Shown here in pieces: positions 4,178-52,750 of a stretch of DNA of 64,000 nucleotides. Below the pieces are notes generated by a model, which saw only the letters and a list, made by a program, of their open reading frames with translations, made no database searches and was not told the DNA's origin. Made by a program: the position numbers and the translations under genes. This stretch comes from Octopus sinensis. Lineage: Eukaryota. Positions within the stretch are counted from its first letter, which is position 1. Each line of letters opens with the position of its first letter. Location: positions 68,758,001-68,822,000 of the forward strand of contig NC_042997.1 in NCBI RefSeq assembly GCF_006345805.1. Reading direction: 5' to 3'.

Positions 4178-4338
4178 CACACGCACACACACATGTACAC
4201 ACACACTTATATATGTATCTATCTAACTATCTATCTATCTGTCTGTCTGTCTCTTTGTCTGTCTATCTATCTATCTATCAATATATATATATATATATAT
4301 ATAATTGATCAAAATAAAAACATGATGCCAAGGATTCA

Positions 4339-4416
4339 GCGGTACATATGTTTCGGGCCTTTATTAGATAGATTTATAACAATGCATAATGTATGTCTGT
4401 GGCCTTCTTCAGCCGC
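4339..4416 (-). ncRNA. Minimal type I hammerhead ribozyme motif (Penelope-like-element type)
   Basis: Minus strand reads GCGG-CUGAAGA-AGGCC...GGCCC-GAAA-CAUAUG-UA-CCGC. Helix I is GCGG/CCGC, the core is intact, helix II is GGCC/GGCC, helix III is palindromic, and the cleavage triplet is GUA. Confidence 0.78.
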
Positions 4417-4619
4417 GCACAACAGCTTCCTCAAGGACATGTGTTACATCACAAATTCTTGGTTGGGGATGCAAATCCTCTCATTCGCGTACGACATAAT
4501 TCGGCAACAGCATAGAATTGAAGCGTCCATCTCTTTCTTCTCTCAATGTAGAATGAGGAAATTTGGATGTTGAAGTAATGTAAATAAATTAATAAATAAA
4601 TACATATATAGACGTGAAG

Positions 4620-4930
4620 GAACCTGGTAATAAGAGTAAATAGGAGTAAAGATGGAGGGGCGAGAATTCAGGACGAAGGATAAAAAATATATAAAAAATA
4701 TATAAAAAGTGTAAGTATAGAAAAATATAAAAATGTAGAGTATAAAGATATAAAAAGATATAAGGAGATATAAAGGAGATATAAAGAATATAAAAAAATA
4801 TAAATGAATATAAAGGCATAAGTTTATAAAGTAAAAATAGAAATAGAAATAAAAGTAAAGAAATAAAAATAGGAATAAAAATGATAAAAATCTAAAAAAA
4901 TATAAAAATATAAAGATAAGGGATGTATAG
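4620..4930. repeat. A-rich low-complexity tract
   Basis: Degenerate ATAAAA/ATAAAG units; source of spurious F/Y/I-rich minus-strand ORFs. Confidence 0.8.
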
Positions 4931-5508
4931 AGGTTACGGACCAAACATGGTGGTCAGGAAATTGACAAAATTTAGTTGTAGAAGCTTTGGGTGTCAATAA
5001 ATCAACAGGGTCGTATATATATATATATATATGTAGTTTTATCATGGCTACCGAATAATTGTCACATATCACATGTACAGATAAATTCCTCTATTTACGT
5101 AATATCGAGGTCTCTTTCTCTCTTTTGCTGTCTTACCAATTTTATCAATATATTAATTATTATATTATTAATTTATTAATTTTTAGGCACGAAAATACTT
5201 ATCTTACTACAGAAACCCGCGATATATGCTGAGGAGTCTGCGACAGCTGAACCGCGATGAGATAATCACCTAGCGAGTTCCCCTTAAAAACGAGGCTTTT
5301 CCCCACTCCATATTTTAAAGAGTTATCAGGCCAGCAGTGCTTTGGGTCTGAAGGCACGCCGTAAGGCTAAAACCCTTCCGAACGAGAAACACAGGGTAAC
5401 CCCATAAACCGTCCTACCCCACTATAATATTAACTGCTCTATATTTTAGAGTGTGCTTCTCCTCCGGATTTAAGTATTTCTACAAACGATCCACATACAC
5501 ACACACAC

Positions 5509-5763: not shown

Positions 5764-5795
<32 letters not shown>

Positions 5796-5799
<4 letters not shown>

Positions 5800-5958
5800 G
5801 GATCAGGCGTGGGTGTGTGTTAAGAAGCTTGTTTCCCAACCACATGGTTCCGGGTTCAGTCCCACTACATGGCACCATGAGCAAGTGTCTTCTACTATAG
5901 CTTCGCGCCGACCAAATCCTTGCGAGTGGATTTGGTTGACGAAAGCTAAAAGAAGATC

Positions 5959-5998
<40 letters not shown>

Positions 5999-6157
5999 GG
6001 ATCAGGCGTGGGTGTGTGTTAAGAAGCTTGTTTCCCAACCACATGGTTCCGGGTTCAGTCCCACTACATGGCACCATGAGCAAGTGTCTTCTACTATAGC
6101 TTCGCGCCGACCAAATCCTTGCGAGTGGATTTGGTTGACGAAAGCTAAAAGAAGATC

Positions 6158-6202
<45 letters not shown>

Positions 6203-6390: not shown

Positions 6391-7999
6391 ATATATATAC
6401 ATGCACTATGCGCATGCCTGGTGGTTAGGGTACTGCACTCACGATTCCCATGTCGTGGATTCGATTCCCAGACGGAGCGATACGTTGTGTTCTTCGGCTT
6501 CATTTCACATTCTACTCCAGTCAGCTGTAAATGGATAACACTGCAACGAACTAGTTTTATGATCAATTGGAATGCTGGCTTTCTCTTCTAGCCAGTGATG
6601 TGGCATCTTTCGAAAGCAAAAACGATGCGAAGCAACGGTGTATAACAACATCTGGTAGTCTGATTGATCACGTAATCACATAAAATAAACTTACATGCAT
6701 GACTGTATGTCTGTCAGCCTGCATGCATATATGTATGTATGTATGTATGTATGTCATATATGTATGTATGTATGTATGTCTGTCTAACCCAAATGGGTTA
6801 ATGTTTTTTGTAAATGTAGCGAATCGTTCTTGATGCTCGTATTTACTGAGGCTGCGAAAAGTGTAAATTTTTTTTGCGTTCATCCTCTGAGGAAGTTTCC
6901 GTTGTTATTGTATTTAATGATTTAGAATAGCTATAACCACACTGTAAGCCAAATACATGAGCATAATACAGTTTCTTCTTGCAGTCATTTTACACAAAAT
7001 AATCATTCTGTGTGGTAAGAAGTTTGCTTCACAACCATATGGTTCCGGGTTCAATCTCGGTACGTGGCACTTTGTGCAAGTATCTTCTAGTATAAACGCA
7101 GGCCGACCAAAGCATTGTGAGTGAATTTGGTGGGCGGAAAAATAAAGAAGCCTGTCATATGAATCTGTATAACTATGGTTGTGTGTACTTCTGTTTGTCT
7201 TCCACCACCGCTTGACAACAAGTGTTCATGCGTTTTCGCTTCTGTAACATAGCGGTTCGGCAAGAGAGTCCGATAAAATAGGAGCTATCCTTTAAAAGAA
7301 GTAAGCCCTAGTGTCAATTCGTTCTACTAAAATATTATTCAAGGCATTGTCCCAACATGGCCGTAATAAAAAATGAATGATAAAAGATAGGAATTTATGA
7401 ACAGCAACGACGTTGGTGACACATTGCAATGGACAGTTCACAGTTTCACTACCTTTACAACGGTGATATTCATATTTGTGTATGTGTTAAAGTTAGGCGG
7501 AATGCAATGGGAACACATACGTAATGCATTGAGTCTTGAAGTAAACTTTGTATCCGCCCTCGATAATTTCAGTTTATCTCATATGGAGTATTAAGAGATA
7601 CTTAATAAAAGCAGGGCATCATGTCTACCATTATATTAGGATAAAGTCTTGTATTTACGCAAGAAAACATTTCAGATCTTGTTGAATGCTCTGGTTGAGT
7701 TGAAATAATTCTGTCAAGAACCTAGATTGCAATTTAACGTTTATTGACATCATGCAGCTTAAATTAGTTAACAAATCAAATAATCTTCAAATAATTCTCT
7801 TCATTAAGTTTTAATAATCAAGATCGTTTCATTATCTAATAAAAATATAAACTATTATTGAAGAATAAATTACAATACAGTCGATATGAAGCATGACGAT
7901 ACGATATAAAAAATTTGATAAAACTAATTTAGCATCTTGTATTATAATATATGTCTGTCTATCTAAATTGATCAATTACCTGTTTTTTTTTTCTCAAAG

Positions 8000-8086
8000 G
8001 GATGAATATATTTGTTGCCTTCTTCGTATTGCTATTATTATTAGCAGAGTCAACACCACCTGCAGCTTCAGCAATTCCACTAATTG
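8000..8086 (+). CDS. nAChR-family (Cys-loop) subunit, internal exon encoding M2 and the M2-M3 loop
   Basis: Polypyrimidine tract plus AG at 7998-7999; GTAAGT donor at 8087. Exon is 87 nt, phase 1/1, and translates (G)MNIFVAFFVLLLLLAESTPPAASAIPLI(G). It aligns to nAChR M2 and the P..S..PLIG loop; an 87-nt M2 exon is the alpha7-like gene layout. Confidence 0.93.
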
Positions 8087-9779
8087 GTAAGTCTAGTTTT
8101 TTCATTTTTCGAATTATTTACTTATCGATTTTTAATCAATGTGAGAGCACAGTCATTTATTTCAAAAGTGGTAAAACACAAGCTATAACCCTCATGCTTT
8201 CAGCATGTCATCAACGGAATGATTTAAGCTGAAACAGGAACCGCAACAGTGTCACAGACAAGGTTCACTCGGAGTATATAAATGAGTTCTTCAGGACCTT
8301 GCCATATTTGTGTTTGAAGTAAACATACAATTGCATAATGTTAAAAGGTTCAGTTGCATAATGTTAATATATTTATTCGTAGTTCTTGGATGTTGATGAT
8401 AAATTCTTTAATTACTTACATAAAATTTATATTCTTTATATTCTTTACATATCTCAACGATTCGATTTAAATCTCAAATCACAAATGTTTCTTGCATGTG
8501 AATAGGTTTTAAAAAGGAGCTAAGTTTCTGGAAGATTACCTAATGCTTTCTTGGTTTCCTGTATATTTGAAGACTTGAATTGCTCTTAGCATATGTCCAC
8601 AAGGAAATTTGATTACGTTTCAGCTAAAATACCATGTAGGGAATCACTCCTTGACGCGAAACGTCAACAAATTGAATGAGCCATCGAAAGCAATGTGCCG
8701 ACAGGAACGTAATGAGTATTCAGAACAAAACTACGGAAATAAAATTCCTGAAAGTTCAGCAAGAAGTATTTGGTGCAAATCATCATCGGAAATTTTATTT
8801 GGCTTCAGATTAATGCCATTTCACCTATTTTACATCGCTAAGATATGTCAGAAATCTATTTTCAATTCCATTTAAACTTAAACGATGCTACTTAGATGAG
8901 AGAATCCAAACCTCTCTTTCCTTCTGCTCGTATTTTATTGAGTTTGAATTTATTCTTACATTTCTTTAAATCTGAAGAATATCACAATTGCAGTTATGTA
9001 TCAAGAATCCTGCAGCTGTCAATGGGGCACATATATTAGCCAAGTCCCAAGTGTTTATTTGCTATCAACCTTATTTTTTGAGAGTAAATTGCTGACATTT
9101 GATAATAGTCTTAACATGAAGACTATAATCCGCATTTTCTTTGTAGACCTCTAATATTTAACACTTACCTAAGAATATGTTATTTTGTCTATCTTTTCCC
9201 TAAAAATTTTAACAGTAATTACAACTGTCACAAATTTAATTGGTGTAAATTCACCATCATACCATCATAAATGCCAATTTTCTTTTCTAGGAATTAGTAT
9301 TTATTTGCAAGTAGATCAAAATATTTTTAGTTCCATGGTTAAATTTGAAATCGTGGTCTTCATTAATATAACATGGGAGCAGGTAGAAAAGGAGTCTTGA
9401 ATGAAAATCGAAATCATCTCGCAGACTCGCTAATATAGCAACATAAATCATATTTAACGGTGTTTGTAAAGTCGCCTATATATCAGTTGCATTCCTTAAC
9501 CTATGCAGAGTCATGGATCAACTGTCAACTCTTCTACATAGATTAATCTTATGATGTCTGGCGATTATTATTGACACATAAACACAAAGCAACACACATA
9601 AGAAGACAGGCATTGAAAGTTATAAATGTCATACGATATGCAAGAAAGCTTTGATCATGTTAACTGTGTCTATAGCTTGCAGAGTTTTAAAATATAACTT
9701 GACAGTTAGCTAGTGATCCATATATAACGTACATCCTCATCATTACCGTTCTTTCAACTTTTTCTCTATCTGTCTGTCG

Positions 9780-45996: not shown

Positions 45997-46758
45997 TTTT
46001 TTTTTTTTTTATTTTATTTATCTAGTTTCAGCTCACGAGCTGTGGCCATGCTGGGGCACCGCCATTTGGTGTTGCTACATGATTTTACTTCACGAATGCT
46101 TTTTAGCAATTGCCATTTGGTGCATGAGAGAGTTCGATGCAGCTGCCCTCATCTCTGCATCTCCTGCCGTGAAGTTGGTTCGTCCGGGACACCTGACAGG
46201 AAGAGATCCGGTCCTACTTTAAAGACATCCGCATCCACCCCATGCAGGTCCCTCAGGTTCTTCGGGGGGATATTGAAGAGCTGTGGGCCTCTGAAGCCCA
46301 GGCTATCACAGTATCTTGTCCTACATCTTGATGGCAAATTTGGAGTCCTTGGCACCACGCAGTGGCGCTCAGTTCTGGCATTTGTGTAACTCTCGATGCC
46401 AAAGTTTGGGACAAGTCCTTCCAGGATCTTCCAGATGTATATTATGGCATATCTTTCTTGCCTACGCTCCAAGGAATAGAGTTTTAATAGAGTCTCAATC
46501 TCTTGCTGCCTGACACCCAATATGGTTTCCGACCACCGTTGGGTGTCAGGCAGCAAGTCATTTTCTTCAAGGAAGGTGATTAGTTTCCTTCTGACTATTC
46601 GTTCCATGACCTTGCTGATGTGTGAGGTCAGAGAGATAGGTCTGTAGTTCTTGGCCTCCGCTCTGCTACCTCCTTTATGAATAGGGCATATTTTACCTTC
46701 CTTCAGTTTTCTTGGAAGTTTGCCAGTTGCAAGGAAGCTCTGAAAGAGGAACCAATCC
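45997..46758 (-). mobile_element. CR1/L2-like LINE, 5'-truncated, with the RT core deleted
   Basis: KGGSRAEAKNYRPISLTSHISKVMERIV..LLPDTQ is joined almost directly to C-terminal YSLERRQERYAIIYIWKILEGLVPN..GPQLFN. A-rich tail present. Confidence 0.85.
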
Positions 46759-51559: not shown

Positions 51560-52750
51560 AAAGAATCACCAAGATACAAGAAAACTCGCAATTCCACTTT
51601 CAATGACAGAAGTAAAGGTGCTAACCATCCACCTTAATATAGAGGATCGCGTGAATCATCCCACCAAGCTACCATGTTACAAGCCTAATTTCCTCTCTAA
51701 CCGCAAATGCGTCCTGATCAACCCTTCTAAAAGTGGGATATGTATTGTTAAATCGTAATCTTGATACCATCGACACCAACATCAGAAGTGCTACAGGGTT
51801 AATCCAATAGGATGCAAGTGCAGTTGTTACCGACTGGTTTCGCAGTATTGAGAACATCCAGTAGATTCACGCCATTTGACATCATAGATTTCAACCCTCG
51901 TTTAACAAAACACTTCCTCCTGAGGCTAAAATTTTACTAAGCAATTCTCTAGAATATGCATGTGCATCTTTGTGTCTGGAAGACAAACGAGGTTCACAAC
52001 GATTTCTTCTGGCTGAAGAAAGCAGGCGAGCCATTGTTCGACGTTATATGGGTAGCCATGCGAAGCTGAGATCGCCGACTTGGTCGGGTTAAATTGGATA
52101 CCCTCAGGAGACGTACGCATCTGCATAGGAACGACGGTCTGGCAATATCAATCCATCTGAATGGACAAGTTCAGAAAGAACTTAATAAAAATATTCTAGG
52201 AATTCGGCCTGTCCATAATGGGAACCACCAACCTGAACACGTTCGACTTCTTGGATGTGACGTTAGACTTGACCACGGGTAAGTACTATCACTACAAGAA
52301 ACCCAACGAAGAAACTGTATACATCGACAAGAGCTCGAACTATCATCTCGCTATAATTAGAAACCATTTCTCAGGCTTTAGTAGAAGAATATCCACGTTC
52401 CAGGTCGATAGGGAGGTCTTTAACAAGGGCGTCCCTACTACACTGATGCTTTGGCTAGGAGCGGTTTCACATGCATTGCACAATTCAACAGACACAAAGA
52501 TACACACGCATAACTCCTAACACCAACATGCAACTGCTGAAAATCTGCCAGCTGCTCTTTAAGACAATCCTACCTCTCAAGGGCTGTAGTTTACACAGCC
52601 ACTCTCACATCATCCGATGGGATCACTAAGCACTACACGGGCATGACAGCTTCGACGAAACTGATGTCGCTAACCATTTAACATTATTGACTATAGCGCC
52701 ATGTGACCCTTCATGACAAATAACAGACCGTCTAACGGTAGCAATATTGG
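51560..52750 (+). mobile_element. Decayed Penelope-like retroelement (RT plus GIY-YIG remnants)
   Basis: Fragments AEIADLVGL, HRNDGLAI (degenerate YRDDGL), FDFLDVTLDLTTGKYYHYKKPNEETVYIDKSSNY, and AVVYTATLTSSDGITKHYTGMT (GIY-YIG-like). Confidence 0.8.

What the first reader, a model, noticed from the sequence alone, without database searches (positions are those of the whole stretch)
4339..4416. Almost canonical minimal hammerhead ribozyme antisense within the presumed receptor intron
Seen: on the minus strand every type I hammerhead element is in order. These are helix I (GCGG/CCGC), CUGAAGA, helix II (GGCC/GGCC with a long AU-rich loop and an A-C mismatch at its base), GAAA, self-complementary CAUAUG, and a GUA triplet with predicted cleavage between 4343 and 4342. 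It lies in a short non-coding segment ending at a (TA)n tract. Established: Penelope-like elements and retrozymes carry minimal hammerheads whose palindromic helix III cleaves as a dimer. Inference: a possibly still active self-cleaving RNA that would cut antisense transcripts of the receptor locus.
Basis: partly seen in the sequence, partly recalled or inferred. Interest (0 to 1): 0.72.

Follow-up and report, generated by a model that had tools for sequence, protein, structure and literature searches.

The report
Hammerhead tail of Hydra-type retrotransposon
This is a real hammerhead (self-cutting RNA) motif, but it is the tail of one broken copy of a jumping gene with over a thousand copies in this genome; the family likely uses it to cut its own RNA in pairs, and this lone, backward-facing copy in a receptor intron likely does nothing.

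Summary
The motif is real: every type I hammerhead element lies in order on the minus strand at 4416-4339, and no equally strict match arose in 1000 shuffles of the window. It is not a feature of the receptor gene. It is the 3' end of a 712-bp, 5'-truncated copy (5014-4303) of a young Penelope-like retrotransposon, inserted in (TA)n in a ~23-kb intron of a nicotinic-receptor gene, antisense to it. The genome holds 1,090 exact copies of the motif. Full-length copies encode an 836-aa RT-endonuclease with the Hydra-clade motifs, flanked by two hammerheads 4.77 kb apart. Across four subfamilies the core and helix I are invariant (21 of 21 columns against 48 of 110 in flanks), helix II shows two compensatory changes and the helix III palindrome changes while staying palindromic: selection on the family for a hammerhead that likely cuts as a dimer. 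This copy is solitary and carries a private change that weakens its predicted fold. Cleavage is untested. Hydra-clade hammerheads are published; this scan noted long-armed ones on other DNA of this genome before.

The parts
4303..5014 (-). 5'-truncated copy (712 bp) of the 3' end (pseudo-LTR part) of a Hydra-clade Penelope-like retrotransposon; no coding sequence
   Evidence: 96-99% identical to 40 of 40 scored copies over 4300-4620; aligns to the 3' untranslated end of ORF-bearing copies L032 and L062
4339..4416 (-). type I hammerhead motif, 78 nt, sense to the retrotransposon, antisense to the receptor gene
   Evidence: sequence; descriptor and shuffles; covariation
4406..4412 (-). core CUGAAGA
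   Evidence: invariant in the majority lines of four subfamilies
4355..4405 (-). 51-nt arm II: A10.1-C11.1 apposition, 4-bp helix GGCC/GGCC, 41-nt loop that is the remnant of a longer stem; private G-to-A change at 4369; AAUAAA at 4365-4360
   Evidence: sister subfamilies keep a distal hairpin whose 5' arm (11 nt) is deleted in this subfamily
4343..4354 (-). GAAA, palindromic helix III (ACAUAUGU) and GUA triplet; predicted cut between 4343 and 4342
   Evidence: palindrome kept as ACACGUGU in subfamily D (9 of 17 parsed copies); intermolecular duplex -7.0 kcal/mol
4303..4342 (-). 40 nt between the predicted cut and the 3' end of the insertion (the shorter of two preferred 3' ends of the family)
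4281..4302 (.). (TA)n target tract, 3' side of the insertion
5015..5033 (.). (TA)n target tract, 5' side of the insertion
7999..8088 (+). host gene: first receptor exon downstream of the intron (residues 267-296 of P0121)
   Evidence: tblastn
17386..17505 (+). host gene: exon for residues 296-335
   Evidence: tblastn, 100% identity
19739..20275 (+). host gene: last exon (residues 336-512)
   Evidence: 98% identical to an Octopus bimaculoides protein named neuronal acetylcholine receptor subunit alpha-10; Pfam PF02932 E 5e-6

Best explanation
The motif is the type I hammerhead at the 3' end of a young Penelope-like retrotransposon family with Hydra-clade motifs, carried into a (TA)n tract of the receptor intron as a lone truncated antisense copy; the family likely uses it, as a dimer, to process its own RNA, and this copy is likely inert. 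Shown: identity with the element's 3' end, same strand as the ORF, two hammerheads flanking full-length copies, conservation and covariation. Inferred: in a head-to-tail copy two hammerheads on one transcript pair through ACAUAUGU and cut after GUA, which would release a 4,769-nt unit (191-nt leader, ORF, 2,067-nt trailer), probably slowly or with the element's protein; reverse transcription starts about 40 or about 110 nt downstream of the cut site, so the copied RNA was uncut or re-joined there. At this locus the receptor pre-mRNA carries the reverse complement, which is no ribozyme; an antisense RNA would need a partner from another locus.
For: 1,090 exact copies, 0 for the reversed control pattern. 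ORF and hammerhead on one strand in L032, L034, L036, L038. L062: hammerheads at 2345 and 7114 around an open 836-aa frame; 3 of 150 scored endonuclease matches lie in an 842-codon open frame. Motifs RW, DKT, CxCx5C, GIY-YIG without internal cysteine pair, CxxC and CxH match the Hydra clade as defined in PMC8557442 section 11, which also reports hammerheads and (TA)n targeting. Core 13 of 13 and helix I 8 of 8 columns invariant over four subfamilies against 48 of 110 in flanks, Fisher p 2.6e-7. Helix II pair 1 G-C to A-U, pair 4 C-G to U-A, helix III U-A to C-G (96.5% of cells paired, 22-40% when slid). The double-hammerhead dimer equals the cofold minimum for 5 of 6 copies tested, this one included. 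3' ends of 64 motif-bearing ends: 25 at +29 to +43, 31 at +108 to +128, 8 run on into the next ORF, like the two start sites of the anole element (PMC11167929).
Against: No cleavage was measured. 5' ends of ORF-bearing copies do not gather at the cut site: 1 of 30 starts within 3 nt of it, 1 at +7, so the genome shows no footprint of cutting. With 20 or more flanking bases the predicted helix I is lost in subfamily A copies too, and no stretch folds better than shuffles. Position 10.1-11.1 is A-C, A-A or G-U, not the G-C that PMC4209133 calls highly conserved. Covariation rests on four related lineages, i.e. three events; the shuffle test for pairs with double changes is not significant (314 of 500). 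Clade assignment is by motifs, without a tree; Pfam names neither domain in this protein. In the anole element cutting needed the protein and was dispensable for insertion in vitro.
Confidence: 0.82

Rival explanations
1. One reading: an active ribozyme of the locus that cuts antisense transcripts of the receptor gene, possibly transcripts started from a promoter in the inserted pseudo-LTR itself.
For: Core, helix I, helix II and triplet are intact in this copy; the dimer fold is still the cofold minimum; family sequence is present in contigs of runs guessed to be RNA, so partners in trans may exist; pseudo-LTRs typically hold promoters (PMC6765202 passage).
Against: One of over a thousand copies, young, solitary; private change at 4369 weakens the monomer fold; nothing ties it to the host gene; 1,090 copies in 2.7 Gb make intronic insertions expected.
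Confidence: 0.06
2. The hammerhead fold is conserved in the family but works mainly as a structure bound by the element's protein (positioning reverse transcription or 3' end formation), with cutting rare or dispensable.
For: Copies extend 29-128 nt past the cut; no 5' end cluster at the cut; in the anole element catalytic mutants did not affect insertion in vitro and no RNA-seq reads ended at the cut site; an AAUAAA-like hexamer 16-17 nt before the cut and a U-rich tract after it recur in the subfamilies.
Against: All 13 catalytic-core positions and the cleavage triplet are invariant while flanks diverge to 53-83% identity, and the palindrome covaries; this is what selection for catalysis as a dimer predicts.
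Confidence: 0.09
3. A non-autonomous non-LTR retrozyme unit rather than a truncated autonomous element.
For: The window copy has no ORF; retrozymes are reported to derive from pseudo-LTRs (bioRxiv 10.64898/2026.07.22.740005, abstract).
Against: 5' ends of the copies are scattered from about 120 to over 1,500 bases upstream and run on into the ORF; no short head-to-tail array here.
Confidence: 0.03

Closest known systems
Hydra-clade Penelope-like elements and their hammerheads, including Hydra-1_Obim of Octopus bimaculoides (Craig et al. 2021, PMC8557442; seen: outline, passages, section 4 part 1, section 11, supplement parts 1-2 of 59 and passages)
   Same: C-terminal GIY-YIG, DKT, RW, CxCx5C linker, CxxC and CxH, no internal cysteine pair; sense type I hammerhead near the 3' end with near-palindromic helix III; many listed hammerheads have one extra letter on each side of helix II (often U and U); (TA)n targets; inverted and tandem pseudo-LTR structures; tail.
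   Different: A different family from Hydra-1_Obim (other hammerhead sequence in File S2, other N-terminus in File S4). About 4.8 kb with a 2.1-kb 3' trailer against 'generally under 3 kb'. Arm II is 51 nt (61-66 in sister subfamilies) against about 25 nt at most in the 26 Hydra-clade rows of File S2 as I read them; long loops are listed there only for two spike-moss elements. Tail about 70 nt against 30-40.
Minimal hammerheads of metazoan PLEs (Cervera and De la Pena 2014, PMC4209133; seen: parts 1-2 of 4 of the text)
   Same: In pseudo-LTRs, mostly found as single truncated copies, short helix I, palindromic helix III, predicted dimer action, low in vitro activity.
   Different: Here 10.1-11.1 is not G-C, and loop II is much longer.
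PAc Poseidon element of Anolis carolinensis (PMC11167929; seen: passages and part 2 of the main text)
   Same: Hammerhead upstream of two reverse-transcription start sites that define an optional tail; AT-rich targets.
   Different: Other clade; there the hammerhead overlaps the start codon, here the cut lies 191 nt before it; there protein-assisted cutting was shown, here nothing was assayed.
Metazoan non-LTR retrozymes (PMC7229834, passages; bioRxiv 10.64898/2026.07.22.740005, part 1 of 5)
   Same: Type I hammerhead, non-coding as it stands in the window.
   Different: No tandem units of fixed length; continuous with an autonomous ORF in longer copies.

Membership tests
Type I hammerhead ribozyme (PLE type) | CUGANGA, GAAA and NUH in order around helices I-III, ends in helix I | tested here: met
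Type I hammerhead ribozyme (PLE type) | Core conserved and helices covarying among relatives | tested here: met
   21 of 21 core and helix I columns invariant; two compensatory pairs in helix II; helix I never changes on both sides in the subfamily majorities
Type I hammerhead ribozyme (PLE type) | Palindromic helix III that allows a dimer | tested here: met
   ACAUAUGU; ACACGUGU in subfamily D; dimer fold is the cofold minimum in 5 of 6
Type I hammerhead ribozyme (PLE type) | G10.1-C11.1 pair | tested here: not met
   A-C, A-A or G-U by subfamily; unpaired letters at this place are also common in the published Hydra rows
Type I hammerhead ribozyme (PLE type) | Self-cleavage after NUH | not testable with these tools
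   only contigs were available; genomic 5' ends give no footprint
Penelope-like element, EN+ | Single ORF with RT and C-terminal GIY-YIG endonuclease | tested here: met
   836-aa frame with YRDD and VIY..YIG motifs; 1,594 homologues, one of four scanned has Pfam GIY-YIG; Pfam has no hit of either domain on this protein itself
Penelope-like element, EN+ | Partial tandems (pseudo-LTRs), inverted truncated 5' copies, optional 3' tail | tested here: met
   L060-L063, L073 tandem; L036-L042, L064, L066, L075, L076 inverted; two 3' end clusters
Hydra clade | DKT, RWK-like motif, CxCx5C linker, no CCHH, CxxC and CxH around E and N | tested here: met
   DKT 132, RWA 45, CNCRCASEC 702, CQLC 799, CIH 829; definitions; RWK is RWA here
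Hydra clade | Insertion into (TA)n | tested here: met
   both flanks of the window copy; most 3' ends
Hydra clade | RT phylogeny groups with Hydra families | not tested
   labelled reference proteins were seen only as passages of a supplement
Non-LTR retrozyme | Short non-coding units in head-to-tail arrays, each with a hammerhead | tested here: not met

The most novel reading that the evidence does not exclude
Octopus Hydra-type elements carry a long-armed hammerhead without the G10.1-C11.1 pair that cuts in trans as a dimer between RNAs of different loci; with over a thousand intact copies, lone intronic copies like this one would cut host or antisense transcripts whenever family RNA is abundant, and the AAUAAA in arm II would couple cutting to 3' end formation.
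Probability: 0.07. Interest if true: 0.65.

Novelty: new member of a known kind. Interest (0 to 1): 0.24.

Why it matters
As it stands it is an ordinary transposon remnant. The family is a usable test case for an open question, what hammerheads do for Penelope-like elements: it is young, has open full-length frames, four subfamilies with covariation in helix II and in the dimer palindrome, and a long arm that standard models (Rfam) miss. It says nothing about regulation of the receptor gene unless locus-specific antisense RNA is found.

Tried and rejected
Rfam: no hammerhead match up to E 10. Folding z-scores: not significant for this copy or a typical copy. My first reading of helix II (extra A, G10.1-C11.1, bulged C) was dropped: subfamilies B and D have A or U at 11.1, so only the in-line register fits all. 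A degenerate endonuclease C-terminus that I thought I saw at 4575-4490 is not coding: the ORF ends about 2 kb upstream in full copies. Naiad and Nematis/Neptune were rejected on domain order and motifs. Expression: no RNA holder listed on record; 6 runs guessed to be RNA and 2 of unknown kind were laid as contigs: they hold family sequence but show no strand or ends; the window's letters at 4431 and 4452 or 4501 had little or no depth, which is no proof of absence. 5' end clustering at the cut site: not found. The 3' end tally required four letters past the cut, so it cannot show copies that end at the cut. NCBIfam and PDB sequence searches gave nothing useful. The paper on dimer cleavage by small PLE hammerheads (Lunse et al.) is not held; I saw it only as cited in PMC6765202. 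Alignment A1 had wrong coordinates for two rows and was replaced by A2.

Full report
Observation. On the minus strand the window reads GCGG CUGAAGA A GGCC (41 nt) GGCC C GAAA CAUAUG UA CCGC from 4416 to 4339, so the predicted cut falls between 4343 and 4342. A descriptor for this layout finds only this hit in the window and none in 1000 dinucleotide shuffles; without the palindrome requirement 2 hits in 1000. Rfam has no match and the strand folds no better than shuffles.

Host. The last exon at 19739-20275 is 98% identical to an Octopus bimaculoides protein named neuronal acetylcholine receptor subunit alpha-10, so the genome is likely that of an octopus. Exons of this gene lie on the + strand at C1:68727366, 68741694 and 68742686 (upstream of the window) and at window 7999, 17386 and 19739. 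The motif is therefore in an intron of about 23 kb, antisense to the gene.

What it is part of. A search of the own genome with 4300-4620 gave 1,682 first-look candidates; the 40 scored are 96-100% identical. An exact pattern of the motif has 538 + 552 = 1,090 matches and 0 for the reversed control; the nearest listed ones are 2.0 and 3.6 Mb from this copy. Homology in the window runs from 5014 to 4303, between two (TA)n tracts. Other copies reach further 5' by variable amounts and run into an ORF on the same strand. In L062 an open frame of 836 codons from ATG lies between two hammerheads; cut to cut is 4,769 nt, with 191 nt before the ATG and 2,067 nt after the stop. 3 of 150 scored endonuclease matches are in such a full open frame. 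Tandem and inverted arrangements are frequent among the 31 long loci fetched, which were picked for being long copies.

Clade. The protein has RWA at 45, DKT at 132, YRDD at 363, CNCRCASEC at 702, VIY..YIG at 721 without a cysteine pair, CQLC at 799 and CIH at 829 (positions in the 842-codon frame). Section 11 of PMC8557442 defines the Hydra clade by these traits and reports hammerheads and (TA)n targeting. Its File S2 lists Hydra-1_Obim from Octopus with another hammerhead, so this is another family. No tree was built; Pfam names no RT or GIY-YIG domain in this protein. Six literature searches showed no paper on this family; Repbase and Dfam could not be searched, and I saw 2 of 59 parts of the supplement plus passages.

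Selection on the fold. From 20 loci with more distant endonucleases, three gave related hammerheads in the sense direction that seeded searches. I compared 27 copies of subfamily A (3 duplicates dropped), 5 of A2 and the best 20 each of B, C and D. In the majority lines of A, B, C and D, whose flanks are 53-83% identical, 13 of 13 core and 8 of 8 helix I columns are invariant against 48 of 110 flank columns and 18 of 37 loop II columns (Fisher p 2.6e-7). Helix II pair 1 is G-C in A-C and A-U in D; pair 4 is C-G in A and U-A in B-D; helix III is CAUAUG in A-C and CACGUG in 9 of 17 parsed D copies, still a palindrome; 10.1-11.1 is A-C, A-A or G-U (81 of 92 copies parsed). On 17 chosen rows 96.5% of cells pair against 22-40% when slid, but these are three events in related lineages and the count of doubly changed pairs does not beat shuffles. 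B, C and D keep a distal hairpin in arm II whose 5' strand is deleted in A, so the 'AU-rich loop' is a worn stem.

This copy. 22 of 27 subfamily A copies, this one included, have intact core and helices. It differs from the majority at 4 of about 258 columns, each private. One, G to A at 4369, breaks a pair of the inner stem: for the 78 nt alone the hammerhead is the minimum fold in 4 of the 5 other copies tested (helix probabilities 0.75-0.98 in all 5) but not here (about 0.1); the double-hammerhead dimer remains the cofold minimum (-27.0 against -19.4 kcal/mol for two monomers). With 20 or more flanking bases helix I is lost in typical A copies too, so these predictions are weak.

How it likely works. 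Inferred from anatomy and from PMC4209133, PMC6765202 and PMC11167929: a transcript of a head-to-tail copy holds two hammerheads that pair through the palindrome and cut after GUA, slowly or with help of the element's protein. The genome does not show this cut: of 64 motif-bearing ends, 25 stop 29-43 nt past it, 31 stop 108-128 nt past it and 8 run on (a few are duplicates, and ends at the cut could not be seen), and only 1 of 30 ORF-bearing 5' ends lies within 3 nt of it. The copied RNA was thus uncut or re-joined at the 3' hammerhead, as in the anole element. The window copy is a product of that process, truncated after 712 nt. The receptor pre-mRNA carries its reverse complement, and an antisense RNA would need a partner in trans.

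Expression could not be judged: all runs were contigs and none is on record as RNA.

Earlier notes of this scan (unchecked AI notes, read after my analysis) describe long-armed hammerheads of Hydra-type elements on other DNA of this genome; one with a 51-base arm may be this same family. They are not independent support.

Verdict. Observation confirmed; interpretation partly supported. A new family of a known kind, with a modest oddity (long arm II, unpaired 10.1-11.1). Interest 0.24.

Noticed in passing
window 52161-52520 (+): Decayed RT fragment of another, older Hydra-like element (37.5% identity over 88 residues to the L062 protein, E 7e-12, with stops); no hammerhead found near it by the descriptor.
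   Followed up: partly
window 4365-4360 (-) and 4325-4310 (-): AAUAAA 17 nt before the predicted cut and a U-rich tract after it; AAUAAA also in subfamilies A2, B, C and UAUAAA in D. Could be a poly(A) signal overlapping the ribozyme or just AU-rich chance; no poly(A) loose ends among those listed in the contigs.
   Followed up: partly
window 4405, runs X1, X4, X2: The same loose end joins the hammerhead core to the element's tail in inverted direction in three runs, likely one genomic copy with an inverted 5' junction.
   Followed up: no
window 31421-32332 (+) and 46149-46757 (-): Reverse-transcriptase fragments of LINE type (Pfam RVT_1, E 2e-13 and 0.01).
   Followed up: no
window 5767-6197: Tandem duplication of a 199-bp unit, 99% identical, each unit a short interspersed repeat bounded by (TA)n.
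   Followed up: no
G000:C16:13.3-13.85 Mb: Cluster of about 18 open frames of about 400 codons, 24-30% identical to the receptor over most of its length without introns; recalled, not checked: may be the cephalopod chemotactile receptor array.
   Followed up: no
L082 (sense 2637 and antisense 2399), L077: Short-armed type I hammerheads of unrelated families near Hydra-type endonuclease fragments.
   Followed up: no
L035, L039, L031, L028: Other retrotransposons (LINE type) sit inside or beside copies of this family, at the (TA)n ends.
   Followed up: no
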